DNA of 32,000 bases from Bacteriovoracia bacterium. GTDB lineage: Bacteria; Bdellovibrionota; UBA1018; JBFWNL01. The notes below the pieces were generated by a model. It did no database searches. It was not told the DNA's origin and saw only the letters and a list, made by a program, of their open reading frames with translations. The stretch is taken from assembly GCA_050251055.1 (NCBI GenBank), contig JBFWNL010000004.1, positions 13,863 through 45,862 on the forward strand. Direction: 5' to 3'. Positions 11,782-19,452 of this stretch are shown in pieces. Positions within the stretch are counted from its first letter, which is position 1. Every line of letters starts with the position of its first letter. Made by a program: the position numbers and the translations under genes.

Positions 11782-13017
11782 ATGGTGCCCATGAAGGCCT
11801 GGTTCGTACTACTCACGATCATTAATACAGGTTCCGCGTTCGCGGCGGATCCTCCTACGTCAGCCGCGCCCGCGCCTTCCGCCTCTTCGCCGGCCGCCGC
11901 GACCACGCCGCCCCCGGCTTCCGGCACTACCCAAGCGACGACGGCGAATCCCACGGGAAATCCGAATCAAGGCAAGCCGACGCAATCGACGTTCGCGCCG
12001 GCCGCCGACAAAGATCAAAAGACGCGCAACTTCTATCAGGTGCTCGAAGACGTGATGGGCGATTTCGAATACGACCTAAAAAATGGACAGGTACGCGGCG
12101 TAAAAGATGTTTCCATCCGCGCTATCGCCACGAGCGAGAACGTGCCGCCTTCATTCAAACGCCAGCTCGAGATCTTGCTCACCGAGCGCGTGATCAAGAA
12201 TACGCAAAGCCGCGTGATCCAGTGCCTGCCTTGCCAATCGAAAAAAGCCACCTTGAGCGGCGACAACGTCGTGATCTCTTCCAACGAGCACAACGCGGTC
12301 GAGCTCGCGCGCCTGGCGAAAATCCACGGCATCGCTAGCTATATGGACGTGGCGTTCTCGTACCAGCCCACGGGGCTGTTGCTCTCGATCGCCATCATGG
12401 ACGCCGAGAATAGCGCCATCCTGTGGTCGCGCAGCTACAATTCGGAAACCTCACGCGCCGAGGCCTTCCGCCGTGGCGTGGACTACACGCAGGTCGACGA
12501 GGCCCGCCGCAAGGAAAGTTACGAGCCCACCACGCAATACCGCCCGACTTTGTATTATCTCTTCGAGAAGGACATCAGCTCTTACAGCGGGATGCTCGGG
12601 CTCGGTTTCCGCATGGTGGAGCGCTATGACAATCGGAAAAAAGAAGTCGGCTTCGAAATCAACTACCTGCTCAGTACGTCGACGCTCACCGGCGGCTCCG
12701 CCACTGCCACCACTACCCCGAGCGTGTACGGGGGGTTTAATGTCACGATGCTCTTCGTGCACGCATGGAACTTCATCGGGGATCTGGAAAACTACAACAA
12801 ACCGCGCGGAAGCATCTCGGTCGGCCTGGGCGGCACTTATTCGTCGGGTTTTTTGGGAGCGCTGCTTCGCACGGGTTACGAGTGGCGTTTGGGCAAGCAT
12901 TGGGCGGTTACGGCGATCCTAGGTTACCGACCGCCGTCCACCGCGTTTATTTCAGGAAGTGAAGCTGGCTCCGTTTCGGGGCTGGAGTTTGGAGTGGGGA
13001 TTAGTGCGTTACTTTAA
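11782..13017 (+). CDS. Exported protein: signal peptide, P/A/T-rich linker, alpha/beta domain, beta-strand-rich C-terminal half (possible outer-membrane barrel)
   Basis: 411 aa. The signal peptide is MKAWFVLLTIINTGSAFA/ADP, and the start could be ATG 11791, which has GAGG 10 nt upstream. The C-terminal 170 aa have alternating hydrophobic/aromatic strands (LGLGFRMVERY, VGFEINYLLS, GFNVTMLFVHAW, ISVGLGGTYS, GYEWRLGKHWAVTAILGY). No family was recognised. Confidence 0.65.
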   Translation: MVPMKAWFVLLTIINTGSAFAADPPTSAAPAPSASSPAAATTPPPASGTTQATTANPTGNPNQGKPTQSTFAPAADKDQKTRNFYQVLEDVMGDFEYDLKNGQVRGVKDVSIRAIATSENVPPSFKRQLEILLTERVIKNTQSRVIQCLPCQSKKATLSGDNVVISSNEHNAVELARLAKIHGIASYMDVAFSYQPTGLLLSIAIMDAENSAILWSRSYNSETSRAEAFRRGVDYTQVDEARRKESYEPTTQYRPTLYYLFEKDISSYSGMLGLGFRMVERYDNRKKEVGFEINYLLSTSTLTGGSATATTTPSVYGGFNVTMLFVHAWNFIGDLENYNKPRGSISVGLGGTYSSGFLGALLRTGYEWRLGKHWAVTAILGYRPPSTAFISGSEAGSVSGLEFGVGISALL

Positions 13018-13813
13018 GGAAGCGATACACACCACCCGGGCAAGCCGGGCCGTACGAGGCGCAGCGCTCACGCTGCTGGCCGTCGTGTGTGCCGCGTTTC
13101 CCCAAGGCTGCGCCTCCATGAAGAACGCTCTAGGCTTAAACAACAATCAGCAGGAACCTTCGAAACCCATCGAAGACCCGTTTGGAAACTTCTACGAAGC
13201 GGCCAAGCACCGCAACGAAAATGTGATTTTACGCACGAAAAAAGGTGACCGCTCCATTGAGGTGGAGATGCCTTCGCGCGGTGAAGAGCAGCTCGCCGAT
13301 CTGGTGGTCCCGATGTCGCCCCAGTTCGCCGACACCGGCTCCGGCCGCGGCCCCGCCTCAACGGGGGACGGCTACGGCCTGGACGCGAAGTACCAGGAGC
13401 AACGGCCTGGCCTTACGGACCGCGAAATCGCCCAGAGCATGCCCCAAGGCAGCCCGGAAATGGCCGGGAAACGCAGCGAAATCGAAGAGGGTTTGGGCCT
13501 GGTGGGCGCCGACGATTCCGCCCCCGAAAACGATAAGAGTTATCTGGCCGCGATCGACTACATTAAGCAGCTCTATAAGAGCCGGCGTTACGAGGCGGCG
13601 CTCATCGAGATCGATCGCATGCTCCCTCGCTATCCGACGGACGCGAAGCTCTATGAGATGCGCGGGACCCTGCTCGCGAAGCTGGGCTACGAAGATCTAG
13701 CGATGAAGTCGTGGGAGCAAGCCCTGTCCCTGAACCCGCGTAACAAGTCGTTAGCCAAGTTTCTGCAAGCCCGGAAGGATCCATTGAGAAGGGGGACGGC
13801 GTCATCGCCCTAA
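13004..13813 (+). CDS. Exported TPR-repeat protein
   Basis: The track ORF starts at GTG 12959. I prefer GTG 13004, which has GGAG at 12991-12994, 9 nt upstream. That gives RASRAVRGAALTLLAVVCAAFPQGCAS as a signal peptide (cleaved or lipid-anchored at C). The C-terminus holds TPR units (YLAAIDYIKQLYKSRRYEAALIEIDRMLPRYPTDAKLYEMRGTLLAKLGYEDLAMKSWEQALSLNP). The stop overlaps the next start (TAATG 13811-13815). Confidence 0.7.
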   Translation: MRYFKEAIHTTRASRAVRGAALTLLAVVCAAFPQGCASMKNALGLNNNQQEPSKPIEDPFGNFYEAAKHRNENVILRTKKGDRSIEVEMPSRGEEQLADLVVPMSPQFADTGSGRGPASTGDGYGLDAKYQEQRPGLTDREIAQSMPQGSPEMAGKRSEIEEGLGLVGADDSAPENDKSYLAAIDYIKQLYKSRRYEAALIEIDRMLPRYPTDAKLYEMRGTLLAKLGYEDLAMKSWEQALSLNPRNKSLAKFLQARKDPLRRGTASSP

Positions 13814-18370: not shown

Positions 18371-18417
18371 ACTAACCCAGTCCCCCTGGAAATCTAGACA
18401 GTGGGAGACTGAAAAAT

Positions 18418-19452
18418 ATGCGTTGGAATTGCCCTCACTGTGGAACCACGTTGACCGTATCGGACGATAAGGTAGGCGAGAACTGGTCGTTTTCACGTTG
18501 CTACTCTTGCCAAGGCTTCGCGCTGGTGAGGAAATCGCAGGTCAGCATCATTAAAGTTCATCAACCTCCCTCCGGCGAGCAGTACATCGTCACCACTCAT
18601 CAGCAGGAGCAGGCTTCCGCGACCCACTCCCAAACGCATCACGACGCACGCCCCGCCGCCCGCCCCGTCGTGCGACCCGTGGTTCGCCAACCGGCGGCCC
18701 TGCCCCCGCCGATCGAAGTCGCGCCCGTCATGCACCAGGCTCCTTCTATGCATATGGCCGTTCCCCTGGCGGCCCCGACTGCTCCCAGCCCTACGAAAAC
18801 GCAGATGTTCACCATATCCGATGGCACGGGCGCCGAGACGATCACCGTCGCCGCGACTACCTCTAGTCCACGCCGAAAAATGCCGGCCGCGCTCGTACCC
18901 ATTGGTATCGGGCTTGCGGGCGCTATCGCCATATCGTCGGGAGTTTATCTCTATCAGCAAGGCCAGGCCTTGTTTCAACTGGCGCAAAAACCGATCGCAG
19001 CGGAATCCCCCACGGAAATGCAGGTGGCGCGATTGCAAGCCCCCCCCTCGCTCGATCGCATCCCGCAAAGCGCGATGGCGCCCGAGCGCGTGACCGAAAT
19101 CCGCAGCCTGCCTAAAATCGAGCGCATCGATCCTCCCGAAGTCCGTCCGGCGGCCCCGATCGCGATCACCAAGCGCGTAGAAGAAAAGCGAGAGGAGTCG
19201 GACGACACCCCGGCCATCGAGCCGCGCCCCACCGCGGTGCAGGTCAAAAACAGTTACGCGAATCTCCGCGCCGGCCCTAGCCTCGAGCATCCCATCGTGG
19301 GCGTGGCCGAACCCGGCACGATCTACCTGATCAAGACCTGGGAGGGGCGCTGGTTCAACATCGTGCCCGAAGATCCCGCGCAGGCGGCGCTTCAAAAGAA
19401 ATCGATGTGGGTGCGTAATGACCTGGTGGAGACCCTCGTCTCCACGAATTAA
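18418..19452 (+). CDS. Zinc-ribbon (MJ0042-type) / Pro-Ala-rich linker / TM / SH3b-like domain protein
   Basis: 344 aa. MRWNCPHCGTTLTVSDDKVGENWSFSRCYSCQGFALV is a CPxC...CxxC zinc ribbon. The TM is ALVPIGIGLAGAIAISSGVYLY. The C-terminal VQVKNSYANLRAGPSLEHPIVGVAEPGTIYLIKTWEGRWFNIV...MWVRNDLVE has the bacterial SH3 pattern. GGGAGA lies upstream of the ATG. Confidence 0.7.
   Translation: MRWNCPHCGTTLTVSDDKVGENWSFSRCYSCQGFALVRKSQVSIIKVHQPPSGEQYIVTTHQQEQASATHSQTHHDARPAARPVVRPVVRQPAALPPPIEVAPVMHQAPSMHMAVPLAAPTAPSPTKTQMFTISDGTGAETITVAATTSSPRRKMPAALVPIGIGLAGAIAISSGVYLYQQGQALFQLAQKPIAAESPTEMQVARLQAPPSLDRIPQSAMAPERVTEIRSLPKIERIDPPEVRPAAPIAITKRVEEKREESDDTPAIEPRPTAVQVKNSYANLRAGPSLEHPIVGVAEPGTIYLIKTWEGRWFNIVPEDPAQAALQKKSMWVRNDLVETLVSTN

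What the first reader, a model, noticed from the sequence alone, without database searches (positions are those of the whole stretch)
11782..19452. Gap-free seven-gene cluster: FliG-like membrane rotor candidate + MotAB stator + cNMP receptor + envelope accessory proteins, separate from other flagellar genes
Seven same-strand genes are packed with essentially no intergenic space:
- a 14-nt overlap at 13004-13017
- 1-nt stop/start overlaps at TAATG 13811-13815, TGATG 16234-16238 and TAATG 16749-16753
- only 18 nt before motB and 47 nt before the last gene

The encoded proteins are:
- an exported protein with a beta-rich C-terminal half
- an exported TPR protein
- an 807-aa protein with FliF/SctJ-like topology and a complete FliG-like cytoplasmic module
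- a stand-alone cNMP-binding domain
- MotA
- MotB, with the TM Asp and an OmpA-type PG anchor
- a zinc-ribbon/TM/SH3b protein

No hook, rod, export-gate or C-ring (fliM/fliN) genes are interleaved. The filament genes in this window lie on the other strand, more than 2.5 kb away, behind unrelated genes.

The composition reads like a minimal, self-contained rotor/stator machine with envelope-spanning partners and a second-messenger input. I do not know a described system with this make-up. The Agl-Glt gliding motors use TolQR-type rather than MotAB/FliG-type parts.
Basis: partly seen in the sequence, partly recalled or inferred. Interest (0 to 1): 0.85.

Follow-up and report, generated by a model that had tools for sequence, protein, structure and literature searches.

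The report
Membrane-anchored FliG-like rotor with own stator
A whole class of uncultured predatory-type bacteria carries a conserved gene string in which a natural fusion of ring-building and FliG (flagellar rotor) parts sits beside its own ion-driven stator, a cyclic-nucleotide sensor and two outer-membrane proteins. This looks like an undescribed second rotor-stator device, or a new add-on to the flagellar motor.

Summary
Seven tightly packed + strand genes lie at 11782-19452, and every domain call was reproduced.

- **g3 (807 aa):** cleavable signal, two alpha-beta-beta-alpha-beta ring-building domains, a disordered linker, one TM helix, and a full-length FliG-like cytoplasmic part. Its fold matches FliG first and FliF second.
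- **g5/g6:** a PomAB/MotPS-type stator with the channel Asp, plug and peptidoglycan anchor.
- **g4:** a cNMP receptor with an intact phosphate-binding cassette.
- **g1:** an 8-strand outer-membrane barrel with a TolB-N/LpoB-like periplasmic domain.
- **g2:** a TPR lipoprotein.

The order g1-g2-g3-(g4)-g5-g6 is kept in more than 70 species; four of these loci are placed in Bdellovibrionota class UBA1018.

Caveats:
- The flanks are syntenic too.
- g4 is missing in one subclade.
- g7 is separable.
- In a sister subfamily (about 30% identity) only g3+g4 stay together, beside a DsbA-like gene and without MotAB.
- g3 lacks FliG's FliM-binding and switch-hinge motifs and FliF's RBM3/collar, so it is not the canonical MS/C ring.
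- I could not inventory canonical fliF/fliG in the same genomes.

No paper describes the family. Best reading: the dedicated stator engages a ring of g3 under cNMP control. Whether that ring stands alone or sits at the flagellar base is open.

The parts
11782..13017 (+). g1: exported 411-aa protein. It has a signal peptide, a disordered P/A/S/T-rich stretch (aa 18-71), a periplasmic alpha/beta domain (aa 84-220) and a C-terminal 8-stranded outer-membrane beta-barrel (aa 250-409).
   Evidence: AF2 model with pLDDT 80.2. Foldseek matches the N-domain to the LpoB C-domain (4q6z, TMt 0.64) and TolB, and the barrel to OmpA/OmpW/OmpX/PagP/NspA. Orthologues end in an aromatic residue. No Pfam family; 325 homologues, those named by their sources all labelled Bdellovibrionota-type MAGs (one Methylotenera label). 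Present in 74 of 83 loci.
13004..13813 (+). g2: lipoprotein with a conserved PIxNPF motif and a C-terminal TPR domain. The start codon is uncertain (13004 or 12959).
   Evidence: Invariant lipobox Cys (window 'PQGC|AS') in the alignment of 70+ orthologues. TPR_2/TPR_14/TPR_9 hits at aa 184-250. Present in 79 of 83 loci.
13813..16236 (+). g3: 807-aa single-pass membrane protein, a natural FliF-like/FliG-like fusion and the rotor candidate.
   Evidence: Pfam FliG_M and FliG_C above cut-off. PDB profile hits to FliG MC at 1.5e-10 and to the engineered FliF-FliG fusion 8z4d. AF2 model with pLDDT 76.9. Foldseek hits FliG first and FliF second. More than 150 full-length homologues; 90 representative clusters at E<1e-30.
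13906..14583 (+). g3 periplasmic part: two alpha-beta-beta-alpha-beta (ring-building-motif-like) domains, aa 32-141 and 147-257. Each carries an invariant CxxxC (C60/C64, C176/C180).
   Evidence: DSSP on the AF2 model. Foldseek hits to FliF MS-ring chains 7bk0_B (1.8e-4), 6scn_A (5.9e-4), 8z5v_A (TMt 0.53) and YscD 4alz. The cysteines stay invariant even at 25% identity. No Pfam YscJ_FliF hit.
14596..14862 (+). g3 disordered S/N-rich periplasmic linker between the ring-building domains and the membrane.
   Evidence: pLDDT below 50 at aa 265-350. Length varies from 18 to 103 aa (median 70) across 75 orthologues.
14905..14991 (+). g3 transmembrane helix (aa 365-393). It is preceded by the invariant periplasmic motif EKIERVExGDA and followed by basic residues, giving an N-out/C-in topology.
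   Evidence: Hydropathy 2.72. Helix 357-392 in the model. Invariant columns E353 R354 V355 E356 G358 D359.
15097..16161 (+). g3 cytoplasmic all-helical FliG-like module (aa 429-783), aligned over about 315 columns to full-length FliG.
   Evidence: Foldseek: 3hjl at 8e-9; 8umx_B, 8wiw_3 and 8vib_G at TMt 0.42-0.47. TIGR00207 aligns aa 538-762. No Pfam FliG_N hit by sequence.
15964..16005 (+). g3 'torque helix' equivalent, PKELVEELNEELGS (aa 718-731).
   Evidence: Two independent profile alignments, to T. maritima FliG and to E. coli FliG, give the same register. K264=K703, D288/D289=E727/E728, and R281 is replaced by E720 with K719 adjacent. P718, L721, E724, L725 and E728 are (nearly) invariant.
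16236..16751 (+). g4: 171-aa stand-alone cyclic-nucleotide-binding protein with a conserved C-terminal helix.
   Evidence: cNMP_binding at 9.5e-20. FGE...PRSAT cassette conserved in 63 orthologues. 39.5% identical over its full length to the cNMP protein that follows the g3-like gene in the sister subfamily. Present in 65 of 83 loci and absent in one subclade.
16751..17536 (+). g5: MotA/PomA/MotP-type stator A subunit (261 aa).
   Evidence: MotA_ExbB at 8.5e-19. Best NCBIfam hits are MotP (149 bits), MotA and PomA, all below equivalog cut-offs. It is the most conserved gene of the string, at 60-75% identity. K87/K88 are basic in 69-70 of 70 orthologues and D/E98 acidic in 68 of 70.
17555..18370 (+). 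g6: MotB/MotD/MotS-type stator B subunit (271 aa) with plug, TM Asp and OmpA-like peptidoglycan anchor.
   Evidence: MotB_plug at 1.3e-18 and OmpA at 3.6e-13. MotD model at 168 bits. The 'SYADMMTLL' segment with the Asp is invariant in 68 orthologues.
18418..19452 (+). g7: N-terminal MJ0042-type zinc ribbon, P/A-rich region, one TM (aa 154-178) and a C-terminal SH3b-like domain. Its membership in the system is doubtful.
   Evidence: TIGR02098 at 23.7 bits, above its cut-off; SH3_3 and SH3_4 are sub-threshold. Only 20-33% identity among orthologues. Found in 50 of 83 loci, and in L044 and L075 it moves with the downstream block.
10565..11584 (-). Divergently transcribed conserved lipoprotein (339 aa). 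It is a possible additional partner or merely syntenic.
   Evidence: Signal plus 'LTAGC' lipobox. No Pfam family. Adjacent in 61 of 83 loci.

Best explanation
The cluster encodes a dedicated rotor-stator pair built from flagellar parts but lacking an axial structure.

**Shown by computation**
- g3 is an exported, single-pass membrane protein. Outside the membrane it has two ring-building (RBM-type) domains; inside, it has a complete FliG-like N/M/C module.
- g5/g6 are a PomAB/MotPS-type stator that is peptidoglycan-anchored and carries the channel Asp.
- g4 is a cNMP receptor with an intact binding cassette.
- g1 is an outer-membrane barrel with a periplasmic interaction domain.
- g2 is a TPR lipoprotein.
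- g1-g2-g3-(g4)-g5-g6 is conserved as a string in >70 species, four of them placed in class UBA1018. g3+g4 is the older, more widely conserved pair.

**Inferred**
1. g3 oligomerises into an inner-membrane ring through its RBM domains, as FliF, SctJ and SctD do.
2. Ion flow through g5(5)g6(2) turns the MotA pentamer. The pentamer pushes on the acidic torque helix of g3's FliG_C-like domain, so the g3 ring, or an array of g3, moves relative to the cell wall.
3. g4 binds g3 and switches or gates this engagement in response to cAMP or cGMP. It would take the regulatory place that FliM/FliN/CheY hold in the flagellum. g3 has lost the FliM site and the MFXF switch hinge.
4. The long flexible linker tethers the periplasmic ring to g1/g2 at the outer membrane, coupling inner-membrane motion to the outer membrane.

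The output is unknown. [quoted passage not shown]
For: - **Fold and domains of g3:**
- **Retained acidic pair and Lys on the torque helix of g3:**
- **Conserved basic/acidic residues in the g5 cytoplasmic segment:**
- **Invariant Asp, plug and OmpA domain in g6:**
- **Adjacency of g3 and g5/g6:** conserved in 71-75 of 83 loci, with overlapping or nearly abutting genes.
- **g5/g6 are not the standard orthologues:** they fall below every NCBIfam flagellar-stator equivalog cut-off.
- **g3 and g4 form a conserved pair across two subfamilies:** about 30% and 39.5% identity respectively.
- **No FliM-binding or switching features in g3:** EHPQR and MFXF are missing.
- **No basal-body genes nearby:** no fliM/fliN, rod, hook or export genes within 10 kb in 85 loci.
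- **Outer-membrane and lipoprotein partners:**
- **Precedent for the fusion:** an engineered Salmonella FliF-FliG fusion assembles rings, and the fusion mutant is motile (PMC6079021).
Against: - Nothing here shows ring formation, a g3-MotA contact, or a g3-g4 contact. All are inferred by analogy and gene linkage.
- The flanking genes are syntenic too, so conserved order is partly plain vertical inheritance.
- In the sister subfamily there is no adjacent MotAB. g3-type proteins therefore do not need a dedicated stator gene next door and may use the flagellar one.
- FliG R281 is replaced by Glu. The mapping of MotA R90/E98 onto g5 is tentative, because hhalign aligned only aa 102-219.
- A disordered linker of about 70 aa between the ring domains and the membrane is a poor torque shaft.
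- The only described carriers of the cluster (FG-1/FG-2) are flagellated, and Silvanigrellales, the order one sister-subfamily MAG is assigned to, encode flagella (PMC13200544, PMC7386786). In this lineage the cluster lies 2.5 kb from flagellin and fliD genes.
Confidence: 0.4

Rival explanations
1. Flagellar-motor accessory. g1, g2 and the periplasmic ring of g3 form a lineage-specific scaffold around the single thick polar flagellum, comparable to MotX/MotY, FlgO/P/T, PflA/PflB or the PilMNO cage. g5/g6 are one of the flagellar stators. The FliG-like domain of g3 forms an extra cytoplasmic-face ring that positions or retains stator units for high torque.
For: - Cells of this class carry one unusually thick (53 nm) polar flagellum (PMC13200544).
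- The cluster is 2.5 kb from two flagellin genes and fliD. A flagellin gene lies within 10 kb in 31 of 83 loci.
- g5/g6 are of the flagellar PomAB/MotPS/MotCD type.
- TPR proteins and lipoproteins are typical stator-scaffold components (PMC13023049).
- The sister subfamily lacks its own MotAB, which fits use of the flagellar stators.
- Silvanigrellales, the order of one sister-subfamily MAG, encode flagella.
Against: - A fixed outer ring presenting a conserved torque helix to rotating MotA pentamers would oppose rotation, by mechanical reasoning.
- No basal-body gene is linked to the cluster.
- No known scaffold contains a FliG module.
- The flagellin proximity may be mere synteny. The sister subfamily sits next to pilMNOPQ instead.
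Confidence: 0.3
2. Stator sink or brake. g3 is a membrane-anchored FliG decoy that captures stator units through its FliG_C-like domain. The cNMP receptor g4 decides whether stators are held by g3 or released to the flagellar rotor. This would be a cyclic-nucleotide-controlled clutch, analogous in logic to the c-di-GMP effector YcgR.
For: - The g3+g4 pair is the conserved core across subfamilies, with or without adjacent MotAB.
- g3 keeps stator-facing charges but has lost the FliM site and the switch hinge.
- YcgR-type second-messenger control at the MotA/FliG interface is established (PMC10140304, listed).
Against: - A decoy needs neither two conserved ring-building domains with invariant disulfide-type cysteines nor an outer-membrane barrel and a lipoprotein partner.
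- One subclade keeps g1-g2-g3-g5-g6 but has no g4.
Confidence: 0.15
3. g3 is itself the MS ring plus FliG of the flagellum in this lineage. It would be a natural FliF-FliG fusion replacing the separate genes.
For: - An engineered FliF-FliG fusion supports motility in Salmonella (PMC6079021).
- I could not check whether canonical fliF/fliG exist in the same genomes.
Against: - g3 has only two RBM domains and no RBM3/beta-collar to hold the rod and export gate.
- It gives no YscJ_FliF sequence match.
- It lacks the EHPQR FliM-binding site and the MFXF hinge.
- It scores 50.7 against 226.7 bits on the FliG equivalog model.
- A 70-aa disordered linker separates the ring domains from the membrane.
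- No fliH/I/M/N/P/Q/R genes are linked.
- A g3-type protein occurs in a MAG assigned to Silvanigrellales; other genomes of that order are reported to carry all standard flagellar structural genes.
Confidence: 0.03
4. The FliG-like module is used as a generic helical scaffold, as in MgtE's N-domain, in an envelope signalling or assembly protein. It would have no mechanical link to MotAB, and the adjacency of g5/g6 would be inherited synteny.
For: - Weak MgtE_N match at 2.7e-4.
- The flanks are syntenic as well.
- The sister subfamily has no MotAB nearby.
Against: - Both FliG_M and FliG_C pass Pfam thresholds, and the whole FliG fold is matched over about 315 columns.
- The torque-helix segment is among the most conserved parts of g3.
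- Translationally coupled junctions g3-g4-g5 are kept in independent gene calls.
Confidence: 0.1

Closest known systems
Flagellar rotor-stator core (FliF MS ring + FliG + MotAB/PomAB)
   Same: - RBM-type periplasmic domains, a membrane anchor and a FliG N/M/C fold with an acidic torque helix.
- A stator with four-TM MotA, a large cytoplasmic domain, the MotB Asp, a plug and an OmpA-like anchor.
   Different: - One polypeptide instead of FliF plus FliG.
- Two RBMs only, with no RBM3/beta-collar.
- A long disordered periplasmic linker.
- No EHPQR site and no MFXF hinge.
- No FliM/FliN, export gate, rod or hook genes linked.
- A cNMP receptor sits in the operon position between rotor and stator genes.
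- Equivalog models are not reached.
Engineered or spontaneous Salmonella FliF-FliG full-frame fusion (PDB 8z4d/8z4g; PMC6079021)
   Same: Covalent linkage of a ring-forming membrane protein to FliG. It assembles rings and is compatible with torque generation. 8z4d was hit by the g3 profile.
   Different: The laboratory fusion keeps full FliF (RBM1-3, collar, two TMs) and works inside a complete flagellum. g3 is a natural, reduced, lineage-wide protein with its own partners.
Borrelia burgdorferi FliG1, a FliG paralogue that is not the assembly FliG (PMC7225975)
   Same: A second FliG-type protein in a flagellated bacterium, with a specialised role and asymmetric localisation.
   Different: FliG1 is soluble, belongs to the periplasmic-flagellum motor, and has no RBM domains, TM segment, dedicated stator or cNMP partner.
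Stator scaffolds of polar high-torque motors (Vibrio MotX/MotY/FlgT/FlgO/FlgP; Campylobacter PflA/PflB/FlgY E-ring; PMC13023049)
   Same: Lineage-specific TPR proteins, lipoproteins and outer-membrane-associated proteins encoded with or near stator genes. The E-ring proteins have ARM-like heads resembling FliG/MgtE_N, but in the periplasm.
   Different: None contains a cytoplasmic FliG M/C module or RBM-TM-FliG architecture. No sequence similarity of g1 or g2 to these proteins was detected.
Other 5:2 ion-driven motors with non-flagellar outputs (Tol-Pal, ExbBD-TonB, AglRQS-Glt, GldLM/T9SS, Zorya)
   Same: The logic of an inner-membrane ion motor coupled to outer-membrane partners. The g1 N-domain has a TolB-N/LpoB-like fold and g2 is a TPR protein, as CpoB is in the tol-pal operon. 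g7 has a GltJ-like N-terminal zinc ribbon.
   Different: The motor here is of the flagellar MotAB/PomAB type with a torque-generating cytoplasmic domain, not the TolQR/ExbBD type. There is no ZorA/C/D, no TolA/TonB-like partner, and the driven partner is FliG-like.
YcgR/MotI/FlgZ second-messenger brakes at the MotA-FliG interface
   Same: A small nucleotide-second-messenger receptor genetically tied to rotor and stator proteins.
   Different: The known brakes are PilZ/c-di-GMP proteins. g4 is a CAP-family cNMP-binding domain with a private C-terminal helix, and it pairs with g3-type proteins rather than with canonical FliG.

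Membership tests
FliG (flagellar motor switch protein) | FliG_M and FliG_C domains by sequence | tested here: met
   PF14841 scores 35.0 bits (cut-off 25) and PF01706 scores 44.5 bits (cut-off 23.3) at aa 555-762. PDB FliG MC hit at 1.5e-10.
FliG (flagellar motor switch protein) | Equivalog-level score on TIGR00207 | tested here: not met
   50.7 bits against a cut-off of 226.7.
FliG (flagellar motor switch protein) | FliG_N domain that binds the FliF C-terminus | tested here: inconclusive
   No PF14842 hit at E<=1 for aa 390-546. However, Foldseek aligns about 315 columns to full-length FliG chains of 310-331 residues.
FliG (flagellar motor switch protein) | EHPQR motif (FliM-binding surface of FliG_M) | tested here: not met
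   EHPQ aligns to N-E-S-V/L-T. Only the Glu (E563) and the distal Arg (R601) are kept.
FliG (flagellar motor switch protein) | MFXF hinge used for CW/CCW switching | tested here: not met
   MFVF (T. maritima) and MFLF (E. coli) both align to L-V-S-I in g3.
FliG (flagellar motor switch protein) | Charged torque-helix residues (E. coli K264, R281, D288, D289, R297) | tested here: inconclusive
   K264=K703 and D288/D289=E727/E728 are kept. R281 is replaced by E720, with K719 adjacent. R297 is replaced by G736, with R737 adjacent.
FliG (flagellar motor switch protein) | Encoded with fliF/fliH/fliM/fliN and part of a C ring | tested here: not met
   No such gene within 10 kb in the window or in 85 loci. 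A genome-wide inventory was not possible.
FliF / SctJ (YscJ_FliF family, MS-ring type) | Sequence match to PF01514 | tested here: not met
   No hit at E<=1 with aa 25-266 alone, or at E<=0.1 with the full protein.
FliF / SctJ (YscJ_FliF family, MS-ring type) | Tandem alpha-beta-beta-alpha-beta ring-building motifs in the periplasm, flanked by an N-terminal signal or anchor and a C-terminal TM | tested here: met
   Secondary-structure order in the AF2 model, with pLDDT mostly above 90 in these domains. Foldseek hits FliF chains at 1.8e-4 to 2.7e-3 with probability 0.99-1.00. Hydropathy supports the topology. This is at prediction level only.
FliF / SctJ (YscJ_FliF family, MS-ring type) | RBM3 with beta-collar insertion (FliF-specific; holds the rod and export gate) | tested here: not met
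   Only two RBM-type domains are present before a disordered linker, and there is no inserted beta-hairpin region.
FliF / SctJ (YscJ_FliF family, MS-ring type) | Forms a homo-oligomeric ring | not testable with these tools
   No multimer prediction or experiment was available.
Flagellar-type stator MotAB/PomAB/MotPS (FIT clade, PMC12505986) | MotA_ExbB channel domain; MotB plug, TM Asp and OmpA-like anchor | tested here: met
   The Asp-containing segment is invariant in 68 orthologues.
Flagellar-type stator MotAB/PomAB/MotPS (FIT clade, PMC12505986) | Large cytoplasmic torque-generating domain between TM2 and TM3, with conserved rotor-facing charges | tested here: inconclusive
   A loop of about 100-125 aa lies between the second and third hydrophobic segments. 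K87/K88 and D/E98 are conserved. The register to E. coli R90/E98 is not secured, and the PomA comparison rests on memory.
Flagellar-type stator MotAB/PomAB/MotPS (FIT clade, PMC12505986) | NCBIfam equivalog cut-offs for MotA/PomA/MotP and MotB/MotD/MotS | tested here: not met
   Best scores are 149 bits against a cut-off of 394 (MotP) and 168 against 283 (MotD).
Zorya anti-phage system | ZorA with a long tail, plus ZorC/ZorD or ZorE | tested here: not met
   PADLOC gives no ZorA, ZorC, ZorD or ZorE hit. Only a generic MotB-like match to ZorB models appears.
Agl-Glt gliding machinery | TolQR-type AglRQS motor and Glt envelope proteins | tested here: not met
   g5/g6 match flagellar stator models, not TolQ/ExbB (an ExbB hit at E 0.032 only). 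The only Glt-related signal is a GltJ zinc-ribbon match at E 0.01.
CAP-family cNMP-binding domain | Phosphate-binding cassette FGE...R(S/T)A | tested here: met
   The 'FFGEMSLVDENPRSATV' segment has FGE and PRSA conserved in at least 95% of 63 orthologues. Actual ligand binding was not tested.

The most novel reading that the evidence does not exclude
The cluster builds a stand-alone, non-flagellar rotary or conveyor machine. A ring or track of RBM-TM-FliG fusion protein in the inner membrane is driven by its own flagellar-type stator, gated by cAMP/cGMP through g4, and tethered through a flexible linker to an outer-membrane barrel and a lipoprotein. Ion-motive force would thus move outer-membrane components, for example for surface motility, prey attachment or penetration, or handling of the flagellar sheath. 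It would be the first use of the FliG-MotA torque interface outside a flagellum.
Probability: 0.3. Interest if true: 0.92.

Novelty: new variant of a known kind. Interest (0 to 1): 0.72.

Why it matters
The FliG-MotA interface is the only known place where a MotAB-type stator delivers torque, and so far it is known only inside flagella. Here a natural protein joins ring-building domains, a membrane anchor and a whole FliG. It is kept in more than 70 species of a largely uncultured lineage (Bdellovibrionota class UBA1018 where placed) together with a private stator, a cyclic-nucleotide receptor and outer-membrane partners.

That gives a concrete, minimal system in which to ask three questions:
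- What is the smallest rotor a stator can drive?
- How can the flagellar torque module be re-used or regulated?
- How might the rotor-stator core have existed before, or apart from, the type III export apparatus?

If it instead proves to be a flagellar accessory, it would be a new kind of motor ring and the first direct cAMP/cGMP input at the rotor-stator level.

Two results are robust and new relative to the searched literature: the g3+g4 pair that recurs without MotAB in a sister subfamily, and the existence of further membrane-anchored FliG-like families.

Tried and rejected
- **Single-sequence scan of species genomes with g3:** nothing found. The alignment-based scan worked. The more divergent alignment A2 had no stretch conserved enough to scan with.
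- **Canonical fliF/fliG/fliM/fliN inventory in the same genomes:** not possible. Only 10 kb of flank can be read. tblastn with E. coli FliF/G/H/I/L/M/N/P/Q/R found nothing in 85 loci plus the window. The canonical-length FliG-like representatives closest to g3 came from Marinimicrobia, Actinobacteria and Spirochaetia, not Bdellovibrionota, so they could not seed a lineage-specific search.
- **Structure prediction of g1 with locus-derived orthologues:** Redone with database homologues.
- **PDB profile search with g1:** nothing.
- **Defence-system hypothesis (Zorya, Pycsar):** rejected. Only generic MotB and cNMP-domain matches appeared.
- **BLAST mapping of MotA R90/E98 to g5 R72/E80:** E80 is not conserved, and hhalign did not support that register. 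I therefore report only the conserved K87/K88 and D/E98.
- **Locating the g4 interface by comparing g3 from g4-plus and g4-less loci:** differences appeared (loss of the terminal Trp; a cluster at aa 641-691), but they come from a single clade and the C-terminal ..VA tail is general. This is not used as evidence.
- **Promoter/terminator scan:** chance-level numbers.
- **Literature searches for the family or for non-flagellar FliG/MotAB systems:** no description found.

Full report
**Observation.** ORF listing and junction sequences confirm seven + strand genes between 11782 and 19452. They show the stated 1-nt stop/start overlaps (TAATG 13811-13815, TGATG 16234-16238, TAATG 16749-16753), an 18-nt gap before g6 and a 47-nt gap before g7. 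The g2 start is ambiguous between GTG 13004 and GTG 12959.

Pfam and NCBIfam reproduce all the domain calls:
- g3: FliG_M (35.0 bits) and FliG_C (44.5 bits)
- g4: cNMP_binding
- g5: MotA_ExbB
- g6: MotB_plug plus OmpA
- g7: an MJ0042 zinc ribbon, plus sub-threshold SH3b
- g2: TPR
- g1: a weak autotransporter-beta signal

The - strand upstream holds fliD (2376-3776) and two flagellin genes (6989-7822, 8312-9205), followed by a MeaB-type GTPase gene and a lipoprotein gene. Downstream are a polytopic membrane protein, an M14 peptidase, a VTT protein, XerC-like and GidA-like genes.

**Anatomy of g3.** An alignment of 42 full-length homologues (44-57% identity) gave an AF2 model with mean pLDDT 76.9. 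The model shows, in order:
- an N-terminal hydrophobic helix with an AFG|S cleavage-type site;
- two alpha-beta-beta-alpha-beta domains (aa 32-141 and 147-257), each with an invariant CxxxC;
- a disordered S/N-rich linker, 18-103 aa long across the family;
- an invariant juxtamembrane motif and one strong TM helix (aa 365-393), followed by basic residues;
- a second disordered stretch;
- an all-helical module at aa 429-783.

Foldseek against the PDB ranks full-length FliG structures first: 3hjl at 8e-9, and Salmonella C-ring FliG chains with about 315 aligned columns. FliF MS-ring chains come next (7bk0_B at 1.8e-4, 6scn_A at 5.9e-4, 8z5v_A with TMt 0.53), then YscD. A sequence profile of the family hits FliG MC crystal structures and the engineered FliF-FliG fusion 8z4d.

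By sequence alone, neither YscJ_FliF nor FliG_N is detected. The FliG equivalog model is missed by a wide margin, 50.7 against 226.7 bits.

Two independent profile alignments, to T. maritima and to E. coli FliG, agree on the register of the C-terminal domain:
- K264 is kept as K703.
- D288/D289 are kept as E727/E728.
- R281 becomes E720, with K719 adjacent.
- R297 becomes G736, with R737 adjacent.
- The FliM-binding EHPQ becomes NES(V/L)T.
- The MFXF switch hinge becomes LVSI.

So g3 has the topology of FliF/SctJ and the fold of FliG, but it is not a member of either orthologous group. It lacks what FliG needs to talk to FliM and to switch direction.

**The other genes.**
- **g5** is closest to the MotP/MotA/PomA models and **g6** to MotD/MotS, all below equivalog cut-offs.
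- g5 is the most conserved gene of the string, at 60-75% identity. K87/K88 are basic in 69-70 of 70 orthologues and position 98 is acidic in 68 of 70. From my memory of PomA, this resembles R88/K89 and E96/E97. The register to E. coli R90/E98 could not be secured.
- The g6 segment carrying the channel Asp is invariant.
- **g4** keeps the FGE...PRSAT cassette of functional cNMP-binding domains and a conserved C-terminal helix.
- **g1**, modelled with 45 homologues (pLDDT 80.2), is a signal peptide, a disordered stretch, an alpha/beta domain and an eight-stranded barrel. Foldseek matches the alpha/beta domain to the LpoB C-domain and the TolB N-domain, and the barrel to OmpA, OmpW, OmpX, PagP and NspA.
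- **g2** has an invariant lipobox cysteine, a PIxNPF motif and a C-terminal TPR.
- **g7** is a zinc ribbon, one TM helix and an SH3b-like end, with only 20-33% identity among orthologues.
- PADLOC finds no defence system.

**Distribution and linkage.** A pattern scan of one genome per species found 90 species with a close g3 homologue. By submitter labels, nearly all are MAGs called Bdellovibrionota, Bacteriovoracaceae or Oligoflexia. The set includes UBA1018 itself, CAIRTR01, and the magnetically sorted, uncultured FG-1 and FG-2. A 2026 paper places these in class UBA1018 ('Bdellonasia'). It describes FG cells as vibrioid, with one thick polar flagellum and a pointed anterior pole (PMC13200544).

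tblastn over 83 loci gave the following counts:

| Gene | Loci with a match (of 83) |
|---|---|
| g1 | 74 |
| g2 | 79 |
| g3 | 83 |
| g4 | 65 |
| g5 | 75 |
| g6 | 71 |
| g7 | 50 |

Most absences of g1, g2, g5 and g6 coincide with contig ends, and in nearly all loci the genes follow the window's order. Three qualifications follow:
- g4 is absent in one subclade of 12 loci, where g5 follows g3 directly.
- g7 is missing or, in L044 and L075, relocated together with the downstream block.
- The flanking genes (lipoprotein, MeaB, flagellin, M14 peptidase, VTT, XerC, GidA) are syntenic in many loci. Conserved order at this depth is therefore only moderate evidence of functional coupling.

**A deeper test.** An exhaustive search of 1.84 billion representatives found 90 clusters at E<1e-30. 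These include full-length relatives at 26-33% identity, some from Silvanigrellales MAGs. Five contexts of this sister subfamily were read:
- The g3-like gene always follows a DsbA-like gene, which fits the invariant periplasmic cysteines.
- In three of the five it is followed by a cNMP-binding protein. The one whose sequence could be read (L088) is 39.5% identical to g4 over its full length.
- In four of the five it lies near pilMNOPQ.
- No MotAB gene was called within the flanks read in any of the five. tblastn on the three loci with DNA found no g1, g2, g5 or g6 homologue.

Hence g3+g4 is the old, robust pair. The linkage to a stator and to g1/g2 is a feature of the window's lineage.

**Interpretation.** The shown facts support a protein that can place a FliG-type torque surface under the inner membrane while holding ring-building domains in the periplasm. 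In this lineage it is encoded with a peptidoglycan-anchored flagellar-type stator, a cNMP receptor and two outer-membrane-directed proteins.

I infer that the stator engages g3 and that g4 regulates this engagement. I give confidence 0.4 to a dedicated rotor-stator pair. I only slightly prefer a separate rotor over a ring at the flagellar base, which I rate at 0.3.

The rival readings are:
- a cNMP-controlled stator sink or brake (0.15);
- a non-mechanical scaffold (0.1);
- replacement of the canonical MS/C ring (0.03). This is disfavoured by the missing RBM3/collar, EHPQR and MFXF, by the long disordered linker, and by the absence of any linked basal-body genes.

The main arguments against independence from the flagellum are:
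- the flagellated state of the known carriers (FG-1/FG-2) and of Silvanigrellales;
- the flagellar type of the stator;
- the absence of MotAB next to the sister subfamily.

The main argument against a fixed coaxial collar is mechanical. A static ring presenting a conserved torque helix to rotating MotA pentamers would oppose them.

**Comparison with known systems.**
- The closest analogue is the flagellar FliF/FliG/MotAB core.
- The closest single molecule is the laboratory FliF-FliG fusion of Salmonella, which forms rings and supports motility (PMC6079021).
- A specialised second FliG is known in Borrelia (FliG1; PMC7225975), but it is soluble.
- Stator scaffolds of polar motors share the TPR/lipoprotein flavour, and E-ring proteins even have FliG/MgtE_N-like heads, but in the periplasm (PMC13023049).
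- Tol-Pal, Agl-Glt, GldLM and Zorya share only the general logic of an ion motor with envelope partners.
- Four literature searches found no description of this family or of any non-flagellar FliG-MotAB system. A recent MotAB phylogeny does not treat it.

**Limits.**
- I could not list canonical fliF/fliG or other motAB genes in the carrier genomes.
- No multimer modelling was possible.
- Two fold libraries were unavailable.
- The assignment of individual MAGs to class UBA1018 rests on four named loci and on the cited paper.

Noticed in passing
window 10565-11584 (-): A 339-aa lipoprotein with no Pfam family is transcribed divergently from g1. It is adjacent in 61 of 83 related loci and could be an eighth component or just synteny.
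   Followed up: partly
L069 10001-11750 and L070 10001-11744 (Bdellovibrionota bacterium FG-1): FG-1 carries two copies of the head of the cluster. The g3 fragments are 93% identical and both break at aa ~597 at contig ends, yet their g1/g2 partners differ (61/47% against 51/38% identity to the window). This could be duplication with gene conversion, or two strains in one bin.
   Followed up: partly
L088 8675-12977; L086 203-3608; L089 828-4637: A sister subfamily of g3 (about 30% identity) always follows a DsbA-like gene, often precedes a g4 orthologue, and lies a few kb from pilMNOPQ. No MotAB, g1 or g2 is nearby.
   Followed up: yes
proteins P0235 (646 aa), P0232 (596 aa), P0221/P0229 (597 aa): Further families of longer proteins carry FliG_M/FliG_C at the C-terminus and a hydrophobic segment upstream. 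P0235 has 20 near-identical members on ENA contigs up to 1.77 Mb. Their organisms and gene contexts could not be retrieved.
   Followed up: partly
window 13990-14004 and 14338-14352 (g3 C60/C64, C176/C180); 16216-16233 (g3 C-terminus): A CxxxC pair sits at the helix1/strand1 junction of each ring-building domain and stays invariant even at 25% identity. The extreme C-terminus KKVAGW is conserved (..VA in the sister subfamily, ..KVG without Trp in the g4-less subclade). Neither feature is explained.
   Followed up: partly
L049, L050, L052, L054, L055, L057, L062, L063, L066, L072, L078, L082: A subclade keeps g1-g2-g3-g5-g6 but has no g4 gene between g3 and g5, and most of these loci lack g7 as well. 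Its g3 differs at a cluster of positions in the FliG_C-like domain (aa 641-691).
   Followed up: partly
L044 and L075: g7 lies upstream on the opposite strand, together with the 492-aa membrane protein, M14 peptidase, VTT, XerC and GidA genes. In these genomes g7 therefore segregates with the downstream block rather than with g1-g6.
   Followed up: yes
window 2376-9205 (-): fliD and two flagellin genes are interspersed with a metallophosphatase gene and two ORFs without any Pfam hit (5203-5682, 5888-6826). No fliS was recognised next to fliD.
   Followed up: no
window 19458-20936 (-): A 492-aa polytopic membrane protein without any Pfam hit converges on g7, with only 5 nt between the two stop codons and no terminator-like hairpin between them. 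It is conserved downstream in 38 loci.
   Followed up: no
proteins P0239, P0247 (310 aa, Marinimicrobia): The canonical-length FliG-like proteins most similar to g3's cytoplasmic module come from Marinimicrobia MAGs and are labelled 'hypothetical'. [quoted passage not shown]
   Followed up: no
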